A program made the translations under genes and the position numbers. Under the pieces are notes generated by a model. That model was not told the DNA's origin and searched no databases. It was given only the letters and a program-made list of their open reading frames with translations. Below are positions 86 to 27,683 of a stretch of DNA of 64,000 nucleotides, one piece after another (position 1 is the stretch's first letter; each line of letters begins with the position of its first letter). Source of the stretch: Kiritimatiellia bacterium (GTDB taxonomy: Bacteria; Verrucomicrobiota; Kiritimatiellia; RFP12; UBA1067); assembly GCA_050949565.1 (NCBI GenBank), contig JBMNFY010000008.1:224001-288000 (forward strand). Direction: 5' to 3'.

Positions 86-205
86 TGGGAGAAATGGGGT
101 CGTAGTTTGACATTAGACATTCAAGTGGGAGAAATGGGGTCGTAGTTTGACATTAGACATTCAAGTGGGAGAAATGGGGTCGTAGTTTGACATTAGACAT
201 TCAAG
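86..205 (+). repeat. Three perfect tandem copies of a 40-bp unit containing the left inverted repeat of the Y1/RAYT-like element
   Basis: TGGGAGAAATGGGGTCGTAGTTTGACATTAGACATTCAAG at 86-125, 126-165 and 166-205, with no spacers. Confidence 0.97.
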
Positions 206-375
206 GGTTGTTCAGCGTTTTCGCGGTGTGGTCATGTGTTGCCGTGGCAAGGCAACTGAGGCACCTCCGAAGGGATGGTGGTGCGGTTGAAAACCGACAA
301 CGCCTTGCACCGGTCGACCGTGTACGTATCAAGGCTACTGGGGAAACGAAAAGTCTAATGTCAAACTACGACCCC
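176..375 (+). mobile_element. Non-autonomous internally deleted derivative (MITE-1) of the 18458-19598 element
   Basis: Left IR 176-201 and right IR 350-375 (AAAGTCTAATGTCAAACTACGACCCC). The interior fuses the transposase 5' end (GCAAGGCAACTGAGGCACC) to its 3' end (GGATGG..GCCTTGCA..ACTGG..AAACGAA). Confidence 0.92.
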
Positions 376-395
376 GACAGACGCCAACAGACGTA

Positions 396-18140: not shown

Positions 18141-18457
18141 CTTACCATCCCCATTTCAACCGAACCGCTCCGCGCACACCACCGCGCGCCCAAACAAATG
18201 TGGCGAGTTTCTCACACCCTTTACTCCCGCGTCAAGCGCCGTTCGCCTCCGATTCGTCGATTCGCCGTAATCGGTTAGTGACAGGAAGTATGTGAGTTTA
18301 GTGCGTGGTTGGTGCTCATTTCGGCACTCACAAGTCAGGTGAAAAGATTTGGAGACAAGCTATAACCATCACAAGTCGAAAATTCTGAAGTTATCAACAC
18401 GGTTTCACCTTGGTTTTCGGGGGTACGAAGTCAGTGTTGGTCTTGTACACGAGTACT

Positions 18458-19598
18458 GGGGTCGTAGTTTGACATTAGACATTCGAGAGTTGCGGAGCGT
18501 TTTCTCGATGTGGTAATGTATCGCCATGGCAAGACAACTGAGGCACCACTATGCGGGGGGATGGTATCACATCACCAGCCGGGGCATGGGGCGGATGGCG
18601 ATCTTTATCGATGACCGCGACCGCGAGCACTTCGTGGAGTTGCTGTCCGAGATGGTCGAGCGTTACGGGGTCGTGCTACACGCCTACGTGCTGATGGATA
18701 ATCACTACCATCTGCTGATCGAGACACCTACCGCTAATGCGAGCCGGGCACTGCAATGGCTGAACCTGAGCCACAGCATGTGGTTCAAAACTCGGCATGG
18801 CCACGCGGGGTCTGTTTTTCAGGCGCGTTTCAAGAGCATCCCCGTCGAGGATGCTGGCTCGTGGGCGCTGACGTGCAGCGTGTACATCCACCTGAACCCC
18901 GTGCGGATCAAAGCGCTGGGGCTCGGCAAAGAGGATCGTGCGATGGAGAAGGCGGCACTCCCGCCTGAAGGGCCACCCAAAGAGCTGGTGCGCGCGCGGC
19001 TGGCCAAACTGCGGGGCTATCGGTGGAGTTCTTACCGAGCGTACGCGGGTTATGCGCCGTCTCCGGAATGGCTGACCTGCGCGACGCTCTGGGAGCGTTG
19101 TTGTCCGGCGGCCGAAGACCCAAAAATGGAATACCGCCGGCATCTGGAGGACTATCTGCGACAGGGTGTCGGGGAGGACCTGTTCGCCAGAATCAGTGCT
19201 GCAGTCGCCATCGGCGGGGCGGCTTTCGTCGAAAACCTGCGCAAGAGAGTACCGAGGCGGGCGCGCGGCGAGACGAACGCGCGCGCATGGCGCAGGATGT
19301 TGCCGTTCGACGAGGTCGTGCGCGCGGTCGAGTCGGTCAAGGGCATGGGATGGGCTGACTTTGCTGAACGCAGGGGCGACTGGGGCCGTGACTTGGCTCT
19401 GTACATCGGGAGGATGCGGTGCGGACTGACGTTGAAGGAACTCGGAGCACAGGCTGGCGGGTTGAGCGTGCCCGCAGTTGCCAAGGCAGTCGAACGGATG
19501 GCGGCGCGGCTGAAAAACGACAAAGCCTTGCATCGGTCGGCGGCACACGTATTAAAGTTACTGGAAAAACGAAATGTCTAATGTCAAACTACGACCCC
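18458..19598 (+). mobile_element. Autonomous Y1-HUH (RAYT-like) element bounded by perfect 26-bp inverted repeats
   Basis: GGGGTCGTAGTTTGACATTAGACATT at 18458-18483 and its exact reverse complement at 19573-19598, overlapping the transposase stop. Confidence 0.92.
18526..19581 (+). CDS. IS200-like Y1 HUH transposase (RAYT-related) with C-terminal DnaA_C/TrpR-like HTH
   Basis: YHITSRG, HUH motif MDNHYHLL, catalytic Tyr in YIHLNPVR, WSSYRAY, C-terminal GLTLKELGAQAGGLSVPAVAKAVERM. Confidence 0.92.
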   Translation: MARQLRHHYAGGWYHITSRGMGRMAIFIDDRDREHFVELLSEMVERYGVVLHAYVLMDNHYHLLIETPTANASRALQWLNLSHSMWFKTRHGHAGSVFQARFKSIPVEDAGSWALTCSVYIHLNPVRIKALGLGKEDRAMEKAALPPEGPPKELVRARLAKLRGYRWSSYRAYAGYAPSPEWLTCATLWERCCPAAEDPKMEYRRHLEDYLRQGVGEDLFARISAAVAIGGAAFVENLRKRVPRRARGETNARAWRRMLPFDEVVRAVESVKGMGWADFAERRGDWGRDLALYIGRMRCGLTLKELGAQAGGLSVPAVAKAVERMAARLKNDKALHRSAAHVLKLLEKRNV

Positions 19599-19620
19599 GC
19601 ACTGCTTCTAGGAGGAGTTC

Positions 19621-20583
19621 ATGATGCGCGGCAAAGACATATTCTTTCTGTGTGGCATTATCATTACGGTTGCGATGATCGTGCTGATTTTCCGAAACGG
19701 AACCAATGATCCGCTTGCACCGGGAATGCCTTCCTCTGAACGACGGGCGACAAACGTTGCCAAGGCACCCCAACAAGACGCTGTCCCAATTTCAGAAAAG
19801 GCCGTGTTTGTCCTCACACAGCAGACAGAGATTGCGCCTCCCAACACTGTAGAGCCGAGTGACGAATCGGTGAAATCTGAAACGATTTTAATCAAGGTGG
19901 CAGGCCGCGAATTTCCATTGCTGTTTGAAGATCCAGATATATCCGATACCCTAAAGAGTGTGATAGGCCGTGATATTACCCTGAATCTCGCTCATTTTAA
20001 GCATGTCACTCTAAGGGATGTCTCTGGCGAACGCTCGGATTCTGAACACAGATCATCACTGAAGGCGACCCATCTTTTGGATGAAGGGTGTCAGGAGCGT
20101 CTGTTCCCAGAAGTGTTCGAGAATAATTTCGGAGGTGTCATCGTGAGTAATTCGACACCCCATATTGTTGTTTGCAAAAAGTTGATTGAAGAGTACGAGC
20201 GAGCGCTAGATTACAAAACACGGCATCCTGTCATGTTTAAGCGCTTGGAAGAATTTCTTGCCCGACTGCGAAGCGCTCAGTTTCTCAAAACAATCGAGGA
20301 CAATCCCGAAAAAGCACAAAATGCTTTCTTCTTGGAAAGAGGTCCTAACGAAGGTGTTGACTACTCGCAACAACTCTCCGGACTATTGAGAAATGCCACG
20401 ATACGAGACCCCAGCATTCTTGATTTTTATCCATCAGATAACTACGGCATAAAGCAAGGAACGGTCTGTATGCCGTTACTGATATGGCCAGATGACATGA
20501 ACAGTGAACCTGTCTTGAAAGGGATTCCCTTGTTTATCTACATCGATGGAGAATGGCGCATATACGTGCCGCGTTTGCTTTGA
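19621..20583 (+). CDS. Hypothetical membrane-anchored protein, AT-rich orphan between the Y1 element and MITE-2
   Basis: RBS AGGAGG; N-terminal hydrophobic helix; visibly lower GC than host genes. Confidence 0.8.
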   Translation: MMRGKDIFFLCGIIITVAMIVLIFRNGTNDPLAPGMPSSERRATNVAKAPQQDAVPISEKAVFVLTQQTEIAPPNTVEPSDESVKSETILIKVAGREFPLLFEDPDISDTLKSVIGRDITLNLAHFKHVTLRDVSGERSDSEHRSSLKATHLLDEGCQERLFPEVFENNFGGVIVSNSTPHIVVCKKLIEEYERALDYKTRHPVMFKRLEEFLARLRSAQFLKTIEDNPEKAQNAFFLERGPNEGVDYSQQLSGLLRNATIRDPSILDFYPSDNYGIKQGTVCMPLLIWPDDMNSEPVLKGIPLFIYIDGEWRIYVPRLL

Positions 20584-20621
20584 ATAGTGAGTTGTGCGGT
20601 CGTGTGTCTCCAGAGAGTAGT

Positions 20622-20875
20622 GGGGTCGTAGTTTGACATTAGACATTCGAGAGTTGCGGAGCGTTTTTGTGGTATGGTAATGCATCGTCATGGCAAGGCA
20701 ACTGAGGCACCACCGAAAGGATGGCGGCGTGTCTGGAAAAACGAAATGTCTAATGAGGGTCTTGCAAAACCCCTTGCTTGCAGGTGTGGCACGGGCATCT
20801 TGCCCGTGTCTCATGGGCGGGACGCCCATGCCACGAGGGGTTTTGCAAGAGCCTCTAATGTCAAACTACGACCCC
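20622..20875 (+). mobile_element. MITE-2 of the Y1 element; right IR interrupted by a 101-bp MITE
   Basis: Left IR 20622-20647; ATGGCAAGGCAACTGAGGCACCAC fused to the transposase 3' end; right IR split as AATGTCTAAT[insert]GTCAAACTACGACCCC. Confidence 0.92.
20755..20855 (+). mobile_element. 101-bp MITE with 19-bp TIRs and TAAT target duplication
   Basis: GAGGGTCTTGCAAAACCCC ... GGGGTTTTGCAAGAGCCTC; TAAT at 20751-20754 and 20856-20859. Confidence 0.95.
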
Positions 20876-20884
20876 CACTGCTTG

Positions 20885-21088
20885 GTCGATCGCGGCACTC
20901 TTGGCCTTCTTGCTCTTCAGTTTTGAATAGGCGCGCCGCTTCGCGCCGACGTATTCCATCGTGGCTTTCCGTGACATCTCGTTTCTCATGCGAGCCGATT
21001 CTAGCACGGTGTCCAGTATTTGACGAATGCGCTTGATTTCCGGACACCGCGATTTTGGCTACGGTGTCCATGACTATGACATACCGCG
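20885..21088 (-). mobile_element. Truncated 204-bp end fragment of the IS at 46562-48026
   Basis: Near-identical to 47823-48026. Confidence 0.92.
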
Positions 21089-22904: not shown

Positions 22905-25900
22905 TTACGGTTGCTGCACCCTCAGCCTGAAAAAGCGCACCGGCGCGGACGGACCGGGGATGATTTCGAGCCGCGTGATCGCGATCGCCGGATCTTCCGT
23001 GGCTTGCGGGTCAAGCAGACGTACCGTGAGTCCCGTGTCTTGCTGCGCGTCCAGCCAAGATGCGGCGGACGCGGTCAGATCGTCGGTGCAGACCACTAGG
23101 TATGACAGCCCCGCCTGTTCGTCCACGCGCGTGCGATACGCGTAAACCAGTGCACCTGCGACGCGGTCGAGGCGCGGCAGATACGGCGTGATCGGTTCTG
23201 TACGACCGGCTCCCAACGCATACCGCAACAGATTGGCTACGCCGTCCGCACCAACCGCCAGCGGACCGCTCACGGCAACATCCGTACGTTCAGCCAGCGT
23301 GAACCACTCGGCACACCATGCCGCGTAGCCGTGCGTAGGGCGGGATATTTTGAGCATGCGGCCCGAACCTGCCGCAACCGTTGACAGATTGAGCGCCACC
23401 GGGCACGGGGCGTAGGTCTGCCCTTCAAACACTTCGGTGCCGTACGGATCGAGTACAAAAAAGTGCCACGATGCCAACGCGATCCACCGCGTGAAATCCA
23501 CGGAAGACGCCGTCGCGAAACCACCCAGTACGTAACCGTCTTCTGGCGGCAACACGTCGAGATAGACATAAATACGATTATCGGCGTCCAGTATCTTCGA
23601 GAAAGGTGCTGCGCTGAACCGCAACTCCAGCGTGTCGTTGCCCGCGCTGTTATCCCCCGCCGTAGTGAAGCGGAACGCGAAATCCACTCCGCCACCCACA
23701 GATTGCGCTTGAAGGCGACCCGCTCCCCCTGCCCCAGGCGAGATCCAGCCGCCGCCCGTCACGCTACCCACGCAGCCAGTGCCGCACAGCCAAGCGTTAT
23801 CGCCGATTGCGATATCCGCGCCGCGCATCGCCGTGTCCACCTGCAAGCCGCCCCCCGCAACCGTGACCACGCCTTCATAATCCGCCGCATCACGCGCGAC
23901 CACGAGCCGTCCACCGCCCTGCTTCATCAACGGCGACACCCCCCAGAGCCCGCCATCCAACACGAGTGTATTGCACAGCAGACGGTCGCCGGAAACATCC
24001 TCCACAGCGATACATGCATCACCCGCCGTCAGCACGACCGGCACCGGCACAGCGGCCCAGTTCGCGACACCGCCCGGCGCATAACGCAGGCCGCCCGTTC
24101 CGGCCGCGCCCGCCGCTCCGGCACTTGCCAGCGTCACCGCGCCGCCGAACGCATACGTGCGCGGCGGTCCGCTCAGCGGATCGCCCGATGTCAAACAAAG
24201 CTGGCCGCCGGACTCAATCGTGACACCGGCTGCGGCGGACGGCGCGGCCGGTTGCGTCATACTCAACACGCCCTCTCGAATGACCGTGCTCCCGCTATAC
24301 GTCTTGCCGCCACCGGTCATCGTGCAGCGTCCCGGCCCCTCTTTGATCAAGCCGCCCGAACCGCTCCACCCCGCCTGTACGCGCAAGCCGCCGTATTCCG
24401 CATCACCCACCGTGTTGCTCACCACCACTCGCAGGTCGGTGGCCAGCACCACACCGCGCGTCACCTCCACCGCCGTGAACCCCACGTCATCGCCAACCAC
24501 CGTCAACGAGGCCGCCTCCGCCCCGCCATCGAACGTTAACGTAGCTCCCGCCGGCGCATCCTTCTTGTTGCGGATACGGTTACTGAACGTCCCGTTGTCG
24601 ACCGTCACATGGCCGACCGTCACCGGCTGCGTGGCGATGCGCACATTGCGGCGCGGCAATCCGTCCTCGTCCGGCACGGTCGGCGGCGGGATGACCACGC
24701 GCGCGCCCGGCCAATTCGGGAAGAGCCCGCTGTCCCAGCAAGCATCCTTATCCCAGTTCTCTTCACCGGCGGGCAGAAAGACCGCAGGCGCTTGCGCATT
24801 GGGATCAGGCTCGAAACGGGCAGTGAACGTCTGTTGCGCGGACACCGGCAACACGGAGAGGCAAGCGTTGGTGCTACCGGGCTCGATCCAGCCGGCGAAC
24901 CGATAGCCCGGACGCGGCAGCGCGCGCAGAGTCACCGGCACTTCGCGGAAATACCAGCCGCGCCACGGATAGGGCGTCGCAGGATCGGGAATGCCCAGCG
25001 TGTCGCCATCCACGAGGATGTCGTTGACCTGCACACGTCCGTGCGCCGGATCGGACGTTGCCACGCATACCTCGGCCGTACTCAAGTTGAAGCGCGTACA
25101 CATGTGCCGCCACTCCCACGCATGACGGTCACGCGCGTACGCCCAAATACTGGCCACCTGATTGGACCACGTCGCTGTGCTAAAAATCGCGCCGGGCCAG
25201 CGCGCGATGTGCCGCGGCATCTCAGGCGCCACGGCATCGCGGAACTGTTCGGTCAGCGCGCGCGTGCGACGCGGCTGATAGGCAGTATTGAGTTGATCGG
25301 CGTAGCGCGTCAACATCCGCGTGCGGAAATCCGCGTTTTCCAGCAGCCTTCGGAACAGCCGCGTGGCAGCCTCGCAGACGCGGCCGCTGCCGGTTGTCGA
25401 CGTGGCCCAGGCCCACATGTCGGTGTCGGGCGGATCGGGGTCCCAACCCGCGAATGCGAAATCGACGTCAAACATCAACCAGCGCCAGCGCGCGTCGTGG
25501 GCGTACGGTGCGTCGGGCGCAGTGTTCGCGGTGCGCGTGCGCCAGAACTTGATGTTGTTGCCGGGCCAATCCTTGTTTACCACAAACATGTTGGCCAGCA
25601 TGTAATCCATGAAGTTCGCCACATCCACCTGACTGGTCACGGTGGCGTACGCGGCGGCATTGACGAGCGAGTTGGTCGAGAGCCATGTCAACAGCGCGTT
25701 GAAATCGGACGCCGAGCCTTCATCCGCCACCGTCACGGAAGAGCCGTACGGAAAACCGATGATGTCCACCTGCTCAGGATCAGCACCGTACACGCGTTCC
25801 AGATAACGCGCATCGTAGCGCTCGCGCAGATTGTGGACGCCCCAGTATTCGCCGTTCAGGAACACGACCGACGGCCGGTATGCCTGCGTGTCATGCCGCA

Positions 25901-27683
25901 GATGCTTGCACAACTCCTGCGCCACAGCGTCGCGCATCATGGACTTCGTCCAGTCGTTGCCGCCATTGCGCAGCAGCACACGCTTATAGGCGCCAAACTG
26001 CGGCTGGTCGGGAAAAACCGGATAGGCAAGGGTCGATGCGCCATATTCCGACCGCGCGTAAAGGCGCAACGTTTTCTGCGCCATGGCCCTCGAGTAACCG
26101 CCATGAATACGGAACCCCATGGTCTGACCCACCACGCGCGCCTGATCCACGAACATCTCCACATTCAGCGGATACTCCCAGTCATACCTGTCGGCCGCAT
26201 CAGGATTACCGTAGATACCGGTCTCGCCGAAGATGTTCGTGTGGTCCGACGCAAGGGCAAGCACCGGCACCGTAAACGACGCGGTCTGCGGTCCCACGAA
26301 CCACGTACCGCCGAAAAGCGGCGACGCCATCCAACCGGGGCGTACCGCCACCGCACGCACAATGCACGCCTTGGGTTGCAGGGTTGTCGGCGTGACGTAA
26401 AAAGAGCCGGTATTGATCAAGCAGAGGGCGTTGGTCTCAAGACTGCGGTTGTTGAGGGTAAAGGGGTGGGTGTAACGCAGCGAATTGGTAGTCGGTGTGG
26501 AGCCGTCAGTCGTGTAGTAGATTTCCGCGTCCGGCGTCGCCGTACTCAACGCGAGCAGTGTCGGCCCCGCATAAAAGCCGGGGGGAACCGACGCCGTGAC
26601 CGCGCTGACCACGCCCTCATAGACTTGGTTGGTGTTGTTCGCGAATCCCGGCGTAGGAACCGGCAACACGTGCCAAGCGCCGACGCCATCCGGTGCGCGG
26701 CCAACCGCACAGTCCGACGGCATCACCGGCACCGCTACATGGTCCGCCGTCGTGCCGTTCGGTTGCGTGAGAAAGAGGTCGCAACCGCTGGCACTGATTT
26801 TGAAATTGGTGTGCAGTTCCTTGTCGGTCCCGGCCAAGAAACGGAGGCCCAAGTCAAAAATCGCGTCGCTGGTGGTCGGCTTCGACTGATGCAGACTCAC
26901 CGCGCACACATTGTCGCCCGGTTGCAACAGCGCGAGCACCTGTGCTTTATTGAGCGTGTTGGTCAGCCAACTGCCGTTGTAGTCCACATTGTAACCGTCA
27001 CCCGTATAGGCCGTATAATCGACCGCGCCGGGCGGCATCTTATAGCGGTAAATCTCCTCGCCGTTCAGCCACACCACCGCGCCGTCATCAAAGTGGTGGC
27101 GGATGTTGAGCACACCGACCTCCTCGGCCGAGGGCACGGCATTCAGCGTGAAGGTCCGGCGGAAAAAATAGGCCGGATAAAACTGGGAAGCCGGGCTTCT
27201 GGCCAGCGGCGTGCCATCCGGTACCGACGGATGGCCGAAGCGGGCATTCCCCTGCGGCCAGGCCGAATCGTCGAACGCGAGCGTCTGCCACGCGCCGGCC
27301 GGCACGCTACCGGCGTCCCAATACCGCCATGCGCTGCTCTCCGGGATCAAGATCAGTTCCCCGCCGGCCACCACGTCCGGGCGACGATCTTTCTTGGAGG
27401 CCCACACCAGCAGATGCGCACCCGGACCGAGGCTCACCGACGGGAAGGTCCATAAGAAAGGAGCGGCGGCATCATTCGACATCCCCCATCCAGTCAGCGC
27501 CACCGGGAGGGTGCCGGTATTGACCAGTTCGAACCAATCCGAACTCTCGCCGTCTTCATCCACCAGGCCGGCGTGATTCGAGGCGACAACCTCGTTGATG
27601 CGCACGTCACTCAGCGCAACCCCTGCAATCAGCAACGCCGCCACGAGGCAACCGAGTGTCGTTAAAAGATCGTTCCCCTGCAT
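22905..27683 (-). CDS. CotH kinase-family secreted protein with lamin-tail, Fn3-like and autotransporter-associated beta-strand domains
   Basis: VRINEVVASN..SSDWFELVN; IYYTTDGSTP; FLNGEYWGVHNLRE, NKDWPGNN, WRWLMFDVDFAF; GGLIKEGPG..TYSGSTVIREGVL; ends FFRLRV. Confidence 0.88.
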   Translation of the reverse strand: MQGNDLLTTLGCLVAALLIAGVALSDVRINEVVASNHAGLVDEDGESSDWFELVNTGTLPVALTGWGMSNDAAAPFLWTFPSVSLGPGAHLLVWASKKDRRPDVVAGGELILIPESSAWRYWDAGSVPAGAWQTLAFDDSAWPQGNARFGHPSVPDGTPLARSPASQFYPAYFFRRTFTLNAVPSAEEVGVLNIRHHFDDGAVVWLNGEEIYRYKMPPGAVDYTAYTGDGYNVDYNGSWLTNTLNKAQVLALLQPGDNVCAVSLHQSKPTTSDAIFDLGLRFLAGTDKELHTNFKISASGCDLFLTQPNGTTADHVAVPVMPSDCAVGRAPDGVGAWHVLPVPTPGFANNTNQVYEGVVSAVTASVPPGFYAGPTLLALSTATPDAEIYYTTDGSTPTTNSLRYTHPFTLNNRSLETNALCLINTGSFYVTPTTLQPKACIVRAVAVRPGWMASPLFGGTWFVGPQTASFTVPVLALASDHTNIFGETGIYGNPDAADRYDWEYPLNVEMFVDQARVVGQTMGFRIHGGYSRAMAQKTLRLYARSEYGASTLAYPVFPDQPQFGAYKRVLLRNGGNDWTKSMMRDAVAQELCKHLRHDTQAYRPSVVFLNGEYWGVHNLRERYDARYLERVYGADPEQVDIIGFPYGSSVTVADEGSASDFNALLTWLSTNSLVNAAAYATVTSQVDVANFMDYMLANMFVVNKDWPGNNIKFWRTRTANTAPDAPYAHDARWRWLMFDVDFAFAGWDPDPPDTDMWAWATSTTGSGRVCEAATRLFRRLLENADFRTRMLTRYADQLNTAYQPRRTRALTEQFRDAVAPEMPRHIARWPGAIFSTATWSNQVASIWAYARDRHAWEWRHMCTRFNLSTAEVCVATSDPAHGRVQVNDILVDGDTLGIPDPATPYPWRGWYFREVPVTLRALPRPGYRFAGWIEPGSTNACLSVLPVSAQQTFTARFEPDPNAQAPAVFLPAGEENWDKDACWDSGLFPNWPGARVVIPPPTVPDEDGLPRRNVRIATQPVTVGHVTVDNGTFSNRIRNKKDAPAGATLTFDGGAEAASLTVVGDDVGFTAVEVTRGVVLATDLRVVVSNTVGDAEYGGLRVQAGWSGSGGLIKEGPGRCTMTGGGKTYSGSTVIREGVLSMTQPAAPSAAAGVTIESGGQLCLTSGDPLSGPPRTYAFGGAVTLASAGAAGAAGTGGLRYAPGGVANWAAVPVPVVLTAGDACIAVEDVSGDRLLCNTLVLDGGLWGVSPLMKQGGGRLVVARDAADYEGVVTVAGGGLQVDTAMRGADIAIGDNAWLCGTGCVGSVTGGGWISPGAGGAGRLQAQSVGGGVDFAFRFTTAGDNSAGNDTLELRFSAAPFSKILDADNRIYVYLDVLPPEDGYVLGGFATASSVDFTRWIALASWHFFVLDPYGTEVFEGQTYAPCPVALNLSTVAAGSGRMLKISRPTHGYAAWCAEWFTLAERTDVAVSGPLAVGADGVANLLRYALGAGRTEPITPYLPRLDRVAGALVYAYRTRVDEQAGLSYLVVCTDDLTASAASWLDAQQDTGLTVRLLDPQATEDPAIAITRLEIIPGPSAPVRFFRLRVQQP

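What the first reader, a model, noticed from the sequence alone, without database searches (positions are those of the whole stretch)
18451..19607. HUH/Y1 transposase bounded by perfect non-palindromic 26-bp inverted repeats, with its own MITE family
Seen: a 351-aa Y1 protein (NHYHLL, YIHLNP) with an extra C-terminal HTH, flanked by GGGGTCGTAGTTTGACATTAGACATT in exact inverted orientation; the right copy overlaps the stop codon. The IR has at most a 3-bp stem (GTC..GAC) and an internal GACATT direct repeat. Similarity extends outward (GAGTA[C/G]T on the left, CACTGCTT on the right) in both this element and MITE-2; no TSD is visible. Deleted derivatives at 176-375 and 20622-20875 keep both ends and join the gene's 5' and 3' ends at about the same junction. 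Knowledge: IS200/IS605 ends are asymmetric hairpins without TIRs, and classical RAYTs are flanked by palindromic REPs. Inference: a distinct HUH element class in which the HTH may recognise GACATT repeats in dsDNA.
Basis: partly seen in the sequence, partly recalled or inferred. Interest (0 to 1): 0.82.

Follow-up and report, generated by a model that had tools for sequence, protein, structure and literature searches.

The report
TIRtron transposon with self-copying ends
This is a real, mobile member of a described but never-tested kind of jumping gene (a "TIRtron"); its many copies suggest the enzyme cuts about 8-10 bases outside each end repeat and copies inward for a variable distance, which reshuffles neighbouring genes between strains.

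Summary
The class is not new: it is a TIRtron/TIRYT (Di Nocera 2013), matching TnpA-Y1 subclass 2.1.2 (Quentin 2018). This scan has met TIRtrons, their end duplications and variable islands on other DNA many times.

What this locus adds is mechanism-level evidence:
- The element ends 7-11 nt outside the 26-bp repeats.
- All 40 distinct exact tandem duplications at 190 repeat contexts start 7-15 nt outside the repeat and stop at variable inner points (0-658 nt).
- In this assembly 10 of 38 repeat copies carry one, against 0 of 143 ends of a control MITE.
- Uninterrupted alleles put junctions at the same distance. No target duplication and no clean empty site were found.
- Across 24 divergent homologues the repeat is GGGGTC + 5 nt + two heptamer direct repeats, plausibly bound by the DnaA-domain-IV tail.

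Best model (0.6): nick about 9 nt 5' of GGGG, strand displacement, then joining of the tyrosine-held 5' end to a free 3'-OH. In relatives the PPIase-nagB gap is a strain-variable array of element ends and co-oriented cassettes; true gene capture is plausible but unproven.

The parts
18448..18457 (+). Left terminal tail, outside the repeat; the inferred cut zone is at its outer edge
   Evidence: A contig of run X15 joins 19239 back to 18448, exactly 10 nt outside the repeat; tail information falls to about 0 beyond -9/-10
18458..18483 (+). Left 26-bp subterminal repeat: GGGGTC + 5 nt + two heptamers (TTGACAT, TAGACAT) + T
   Evidence: no hairpin
18490..18519 (+). Putative inward sigma-70 promoter (TTGCGG, 18 nt, TG-n-TAATGT), kept in the MITEs
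   Evidence: Read from sequence; left ends score above right ends in 21 of 24 homologues; not listed by the generic scan
18526..19581 (+). TIRYT gene: HUH/Y1 domain (about 1-175) plus DnaA-domain-IV-like HTH (about 255-348)
   Evidence: Pfam Y1_Tnp 1e-11; DnaA by profile E 1.9e-5; Foldseek best hit 4er8, and 1j1v at TM 0.87 of target
19573..19598 (-). Right 26-bp subterminal repeat, overlapping the stop codon
19599..19606 (-). Right terminal tail (8 nt)
   Evidence: L112 carries the same 8 nt and then a different flank
19621..20583 (+). Cassette ORF, 320 aa, N-terminal membrane anchor, spacer GC 0.47, no family
   Evidence: No Pfam or NCBIfam hit; DNA found in 0 of 120 other family genomes; atlas hits <=0.81, leads only; other cassettes stand at this place in relatives
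20612..20884 (+). MITE-2 with tails: 149-bp deletion derivative plus a foreign insertion
   Evidence: right junction 9 nt outside the repeat (f26)
20755..20855 (.). Unrelated 101-bp palindromic MITE inserted in the right repeat of MITE-2, 4-bp target duplication
   Evidence: 44 full copies in the genome, 27 with a 4-5 bp duplication; fold z -9.9
20885..21075 (.). Truncated 5' piece of an IS481-like element abutting the MITE-2 right tail
   Evidence: Two uninterrupted copies in the genome; IS481 match weak, 25 bits against cut-off 224
86..385 (+). MITE-1 (176-375) with three tandem 40-bp left-end units starting 10 nt outside the repeat
   Evidence: L183 has the same 10-nt tail at an unrelated flank (f94)

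Best explanation
A mobile TIRtron. INFERRED: the DnaA-IV-like HTH binds the two heptamers of each repeat in double-stranded DNA, and the Y1 domain nicks the GGGG-bearing strand about 8-10 nt 5' of GGGGTC, by distance rather than by sequence. ESTABLISHED for HUH enzymes: the nick leaves a 5'-phosphotyrosine and a 3'-OH. INFERRED: host polymerase extends the 3'-OH into the element and displaces the protein-capped 5' end, which is then joined to any available 3'-OH. Joining to the extended strand gives a tandem duplication with a fixed outer start and variable inner end; joining further out gives an adjacent deletion; joining elsewhere gives relocation or fusion, with passenger DNA if copying ran past the far end. 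Both ends act alike, on opposite strands, and there is no dedicated terminator. Whole elements probably move through an end-to-end circle or dimer. SHOWN in sequence: the junction geometry, mobility, absence of target duplications, and strain-variable arrays of ends and cassettes.
For: 40 distinct exact duplication units at 190 repeat contexts start 7-15 nt outside (36 of 40 fit a cut at 8-10), inner end 0-658 nt, 23 left and 17 right; 16 of 40 blunt; no preferred dinucleotide at the cut. An unbiased scan of -60..+120 found no duplication of another geometry among 32 groups; random anchors 19 of 5000. Same assembly: 10 of 38 repeat copies against 0 of 143 control-MITE ends. Homologues: 16 of 97 ends; also a 28%-identical Legionella plasmid homologue. 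Independent line: 26 of 43 flanks with an uninterrupted counterpart break 7-10 nt from the repeat. A run contig joins 19239 to 18448. Lone left ends fused to passenger DNA occur at 6 and 4 differing flanks. Copies 95-98% identical lie about 0.77-1.06 Mb apart in complete genome G027. One 9-nt flank is shared between the right side of one copy and the left side of another, as a circle junction predicts. Same logic as the BIME amplification model of PMC3333891.
Against: No biochemistry; strand polarity is inferred from duplication geometry alone. Microhomology of 2-3 nt is somewhat enriched (13 of 40 against about 16% expected), so pairing may help some joins. 17 of 43 flanks fall outside 7-10 (4 mis-anchored by my script, some rows duplicated, others at 3-6 or 12-27). 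No clean empty site among 38 two-ended units, so the integration step is unobserved. The circle rests on one case. HTH-repeat covariation is weak (r 0.21, top of 57 windows, kin not independent). Most events come from one species group and are not phylogenetically independent.
Confidence: 0.6

Rival explanations
1. IS608-like peel-and-paste on one strand: a cut 5' of the left repeat and a cut 3' of the right repeat excise a single-stranded circle; duplications are errors that use secondary, relaxed cuts.
For: Y1 fold closest to TnpA_REP and IS608/ISDra2; no target duplication; left and right tails differ in consensus; whole elements move.
Against: Left and right ends duplicate alike, 23 against 17; the repeats are identical and do not fold; no target or cut-site motif; no clean empty site, which precise paste predicts.
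Confidence: 0.2
2. The protein-bound repeat is a replication obstacle or nick site, and host template switching or repair makes the duplications and rearrangements; the Y1 domain does not do the joining.
For: Some excess of 2-3 nt microhomology; junctions are imprecise by a few nucleotides.
Against: 16 of 40 joints are blunt; the duplicated unit always includes the repeat side, never the outer flank; catalytic H60, H62 and Y120 are invariant in 18 aligned sequences.
Confidence: 0.15
3. The end duplications are assembly artefacts at repeats.
For: Most loci come from short-read metagenome assemblies.
Against: A far more abundant repeat in the same assembly shows 0 of 143; the pattern is in single-contig genome G027, a complete plasmid record and independent runs; distances agree with uninterrupted alleles.
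Confidence: 0.03
4. On the arrays only: the PPIase-nagB gap is an ordinary variable island in which element ends pile up and delete or duplicate locally, without importing genes.
For: Several cassettes are truncated versions of neighbours (C01 of C07, C05 of C12); orphan Rhs modules are known to gather in islands (own knowledge); the serpin case lacks its far-left flank and was not found in 5 other genomes; earlier scan notes reached this reading on other DNA.
Against: The serpin cassette of L116 is a 1.2-kb excerpt of a repeat-free locus of G000, cut in the last codons of the upstream gene, with joins 11 and about 9 nt from the repeats, and its right side is not the native neighbour. The same right tail is joined at 8 nt to different cassettes. 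15 of 16 spacers have their longest ORF on the element strand.
Confidence: 0.5

Closest known systems
TIRtron / TIRYT (Di Nocera, De Gregorio and Rocco 2013, PMC3733652; section 16 and passages read)
   Same: Y1/HUH gene flanked by long inverted repeats unrelated to REPs, often overlapping the gene; moderately abundant repeat family in singles, dimers and clusters.
   Different: Repeat starts GGGGTCGT, 6 of 8 of GGGGWSAS. The parts read give no element ends, mechanism, heptamer architecture or cassette arrays.
TnpA-Y1 subclass 2.1, subgroup 2.1.2 (Quentin et al. 2018, PMC6006769; Results read) = RAYT group 1 (Bertels et al. 2017, PMC5581495; parts 2-4 of 6 read)
   Same: NH[YF]H, FQ, Y[IV]HLNP and SS motifs; Bac_DnaA_C-like C-terminus; no REP hairpins; the most IS-like RAYT group.
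   Different: The paper leaves open whether the HTH binds the repeats and gives no activity; here there are near-identical unlinked copies and mapped junctions.
E. coli TnpA_REP / BIME system (PMC3333891, PMC8266576; passages read; PDB 4er8)
   Same: Best structural hit; 5'-phosphotyrosine chemistry; a proposed nick-extend-rejoin amplification of repeats.
   Different: Needs GTAG-footed single-stranded hairpins and cuts at C|T; here no hairpin, no dinucleotide preference, an added dsDNA-type HTH, and the gene itself moves.
IS91/ISCR one-ended transposition (PMC13181058; passages read)
   Same: HUH enzyme, no target duplication, one fixed end with variable far end, mobilisation of adjacent DNA, circular intermediates.
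   Different: IS91 has distinct ori and ter ends with palindromes and a tetranucleotide target, and (own knowledge) a Y2 transposase; here two equivalent ends and no target motif.
IS200/IS605 (IS608, ISDra2)
   Same: Y1 fold; no target duplication.
   Different: YxxxQ motif, short protein and subterminal hairpins are absent; separate clade.

Membership tests
TIRtron/TIRYT | Tyrosine (Y1/HUH) transposase gene | tested here: met
TIRtron/TIRYT | Flanked by long inverted repeats unrelated to GTAG REPs | tested here: met
   the GTAG at repeat positions 7-10 is not conserved in homologues and foots no hairpin
TIRtron/TIRYT | GGGGWSAS motif (stated for only some TIRs) | tested here: inconclusive
   GGGGTCGT matches 6 of 8; position 7 is A in 75% of 24 homologue representatives
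TIRtron/TIRYT | Repeats form a dispersed family (in some genomes) | tested here: met
   46 hits at <=6 mismatches in G000
TnpA-Y1 subclass 2.1.2 | NH[YF]H, FQ, Y[IV]HLNP and SS motifs | tested here: met
   NHYH, FQ, YIHLNP, WSSY (against Table 1)
TnpA-Y1 subclass 2.1.2 | C-terminal Bac_DnaA_C/HTH domain | tested here: met
   Profile hit to DnaA E 1.9e-5; 1j1v TM 0.87; the query alone has no Pfam HTH hit and 1 of 18 members hits Bac_DnaA_C
TnpA-Y1 subclass 2.1.2 | Assignment by the authors' clustering, HMMs or reference tree | not testable with these tools
   Their profiles and the 26 TIRYT reference sequences were not in my tree; supplements not read
REP-associated RAYT (REPtron) | NF047646 above cut-off | tested here: not met
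   53.7 bits against 80
REP-associated RAYT (REPtron) | Flanking GTAG-footed palindromes | tested here: not met
IS200/IS605 | YxxxQ motif, short TnpA, clade membership | tested here: not met
   17.3 bits against 55; separate clade
IS200/IS605 | Subterminal hairpins and tetra/pentanucleotide target | tested here: not met
IS91/ISCR | Distinct oriIS/terIS ends and tetranucleotide target | tested here: not met
   Identical ends, both active, no target motif
IS91/ISCR | Rolling-circle transposition shown experimentally | not testable with these tools
   needs an assay
Integron cassette array | attC hairpin sites and an IntI integrase | tested here: inconclusive
   The separators do not fold and no integrase-length ORF lies between PPIase and nagB; no attC model or genome-wide IntI search was run

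The most novel reading that the evidence does not exclude
TIRtrons are two-headed, terminator-less rolling-circle-like elements: each end is a dsDNA origin read by a DnaA-IV domain, nicked by a ruler mechanism about 9 nt away, and able alone to copy and relocate adjacent genes. Their MITEs supply a portable promoter, so arrays of ends and cassettes work as an integrase-free system for capturing, expressing and shuffling genes such as Rhs toxin/immunity modules.
Probability: 0.3. Interest if true: 0.82.

Novelty: new member of a known kind. Interest (0 to 1): 0.52.

Why it matters
Subclass 2.1 proteins were reported in 14.9% of species sampled (PMC6006769). In the library searched only two works mention TIRYT and one TIRtron, and the parts read give no mechanism. 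This locus turns that open question into exact, testable predictions: which strand is cut, at what distance, and which bases the HTH reads. If right, it is an HUH transposase that recognises double-stranded repeats instead of hairpins and may move neighbouring genes from a single end.

Tried and rejected
- Target duplications: none above chance in 38 two-ended units. No long flanking direct repeat at a junction among homologues; the apparent 146-nt overlap at L156 was a dispersed repeat.
- Clean empty sites: none. Relatives G001, G003, G005 and G006 lack the element next to PPIase, but their downstream sequence is unrelated.
- Hairpin or REP character: rejected.
- Cut-site dinucleotide such as C|T: none among 16 blunt events.
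- Origin of the window cassette: DNA not found in 120 family genomes; atlas hits under 0.9.
- Generic promoter scan did not list the left-end promoter.
- Covariation of repeat positions 7-11 peaked outside the HTH and tracks phylogeny; not interpreted.
- Plasmids: only 2 of 72,556 records matched.
- RNA-library contigs cover the gene but cannot show transcription.
- Not run: complex prediction, large protein-database searches, phage collection, strand bias against replication.
- Literature: 7 searches found no biochemical study of this group; subscription papers are not covered and no supplements were read.

Full report
OBSERVATION. The window has a 351-aa ORF at 18526-19581 between exact inverted copies of a 26-mer at 18458-18483 and 19573-19598; 8 copies lie in the window against none expected. 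The genome (G000, 4.66 Mb, 21 contigs) has 46 hits at <=6 mismatches, one intact gene and one internally deleted copy. The window MITEs and several others share the junction at about 90/1034 of the element. The closest relative returned with a title is a Kiritimatiellia MAG (L031, 96% protein identity), and runs holding the stretch are mostly from digesters, landfill and wastewater.

PROTEIN. Pfam gives Y1_Tnp. NCBIfam RAYT and IS200 models stay below cut-off. A profile of 18 homologues hits DnaA domain IV (E 1.9e-5). The AlphaFold model (pLDDT 73.9) matches TnpA_REP 4er8 best, and DnaA domain IV at TM 0.87 of the target. In a 60-row tree the 25 IR-flanked proteins form one clade (100/100) apart from 10 IS200 and 23 RAYT-model proteins and E. 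coli RayT; published TIRYT references were not in the tree.

WHAT IS KNOWN. Di Nocera 2013 (PMC3733652; section 16 and passages) named such units TIRtrons. Quentin 2018 (PMC6006769; Results read) put most in subclass 2.1, with DnaA-like C-termini and no REPs, and left the HTH's role open. Bertels 2017 (PMC5581495; parts 2-4 of 6) found group 1 the most IS-like RAYT group. Searches for TIRYT and TIRtron returned only those first two works. Earlier scan notes report TIRtrons, end duplications and variable islands in other genomes. The class is therefore known.

THE TRUE ENDS. I pooled G000, close relatives and 119 metagenome stretches holding the exact repeat. Among 190 distinct repeat contexts there are 40 distinct exact tandem duplications. 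The unit starts 7-15 nt outside the repeat (mode 10; 36 of 40 fit 8-10) and ends 0-658 nt inside; 23 are at left ends and 17 at right ends. A scan not tied to the repeat start found no other geometry among 32 groups, and 19 of 5000 random anchors carried a duplication. In G000 alone the count is 10 of 38, against 0 of 143 ends of the 101-bp MITE. Separately, of 138 outer flanks 43 had an uninterrupted counterpart; 26 broke 7-10 nt from the repeat, 4 were mis-anchored by my script, and 13 fell at 3-6 or 12-27, with a few rows duplicated. A contig of run X15 joins 19239 back to 18448, 10 nt outside this element's left repeat, and X4 and X15 carry a 14-nt duplication at MITE-2. Sixteen of 40 joints are blunt, 2-3 nt overlaps are somewhat enriched, and no dinucleotide is preferred. 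Thirty-eight two-ended units show no target duplication and no clean empty site.

CLASS-WIDE ANATOMY. Of 60 full-length homologues, 48 gave an anchored repeat pair; several of the rest are cut by contig ends. In 24 representatives under 60% identity the repeat is GGGGTC, five variable bases and two heptamers. Identity at period 7 is 0.68 within elements against 0.48 across them (0 of 20,000 permutations; kin not independent). Sixteen of 97 ends carry the same duplication, as does a 28%-identical Legionella plasmid homologue. Heptamer divergence correlates best with residues 313-324, the recognition helix, but weakly (r 0.21). Left ends score as inward promoters above right ends in 21 of 24.

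MOBILITY. Forty of 61 genomes searched have a match. Complete genome G027 has 9 full copies in four subfamilies, with pairs 95-98% identical about 0.77-1.06 Mb apart. The 97%-identical element of G006 sits at another locus. One G027 copy has on its right the 9 nt that another has on its left, as expected if an end-to-end circle reopened at a shifted position; this is one case. L161 has a right end and a left end 22 nt apart. Lone left ends fused to passengers occur at 6 and at 4 differing flanks.

ARRAYS. The gap between the PPIase and nagB genes differs among relatives. Same-direction elements and MITEs alternate with different cassettes: the window's ORF, an ankyrin gene, Rhs core-end fragments and small membrane proteins. 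Of 16 non-redundant right-to-left spacers, 15 have their longest ORF on the element strand and 14 have GC <=0.53, against 7.8% of G000 windows (five of the spacers are from G027). Some cassettes are truncated copies of neighbours, which local one-ended duplication or deletion explains. The serpin cassette of L116 is an excerpt of a repeat-free G000 locus, cut inside the upstream gene, with joins 11 and about 9 nt from the repeats. Its far-left flank could not be seen, so import is likely but not proven.

MECHANISM. HUH cleavage leaves a 5'-phosphotyrosine and a 3'-OH (PMC8266576, passages), and a nick-extend-rejoin route was proposed for BIME amplification (PMC3333891, passages). The simplest fit here is a nick on the GGGG strand about 9 nt outside the repeat, displacement synthesis inward, and joining of the held 5' end to a free 3'-OH. 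That yields duplications, adjacent deletions and relocations with one fixed junction (0.6). It works like IS91 one-ended transposition (PMC13181058, passages) but fails IS91 membership. Replitrons (PMC10288648, abstract only) are eukaryotic with direct repeats and were set aside. Rivals are one-strand peel-and-paste (0.2), host repair at a bound or nicked site (0.15) and assembly artefact (0.03). Polarity, HTH binding and integration are inferred, not shown.

VERDICT. New member of a known, untested kind. The value lies in the mapped end geometry and repeat architecture, which make the class directly testable, and in a plausible but unproven role in gene capture. Supplements of the 2013 and 2018 papers were not read and may hold repeat sequences that bear on the heptamer claim. 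Interest 0.52.

Noticed in passing
window 20755-20855 and genome-wide: A 101-bp palindromic MITE with 4-5 bp target duplications; 44 full copies and many partial ones in G000.
   Followed up: partly
L142:1501-3026 (also L126, L154, L163): A lone left end fused to a vapBC-like pair followed by a large helicase/phospholipase-like ORF (named by eye), at four differing outer flanks.
   Followed up: partly
L113, L131, L132, L139, L173; G000 C10:133631-134495: A lone left end fused to a fragment of an alpha/beta-hydrolase-like gene (DUF900, weak); L139 holds two copies 1078 nt apart.
   Followed up: partly
L038, L039, L041, L044, L047, L112, L121: Many TIRtron ends abut Rhs genes or orphan Rhs C-terminal/immunity modules; in L112 the right end joins just before the DPxGL motif.
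   Followed up: partly
L161, L172 against G000 C17:522-527 kb and 959-964 kb: In other strains the MITE block at 961 kb is joined to DNA that lies about 435 kb away in G000, suggesting end-mediated rearrangement.
   Followed up: no
G000 C7:150643-150917 (L223): Two MITEs fused head to tail within the heptamer repeats, with no spacer.
   Followed up: no
G000 C17:978400-978900, C17:1428150-1428650, C8:345126-345352: A further dispersed intergenic repeat that several right ends are joined to (L110, L137, L156).
   Followed up: no
window 18245-18445: The spacer left of the element differs from that of G004 and pieces of it recur elsewhere (L115, L175); it may be another mobile or repeated module.
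   Followed up: no
G000 C17:1660315-1660845, C10:220531, C17:1007791, C9:28434, C18:1846, C20:22157: Other Y1/RAYT-like genes in the genome, some in long frames; one may serve other repeat families.
   Followed up: no
window 22905-27683 (-): A 1592-aa secreted protein with CotH-kinase-like and autotransporter-repeat-like stretches (by eye).
   Followed up: no
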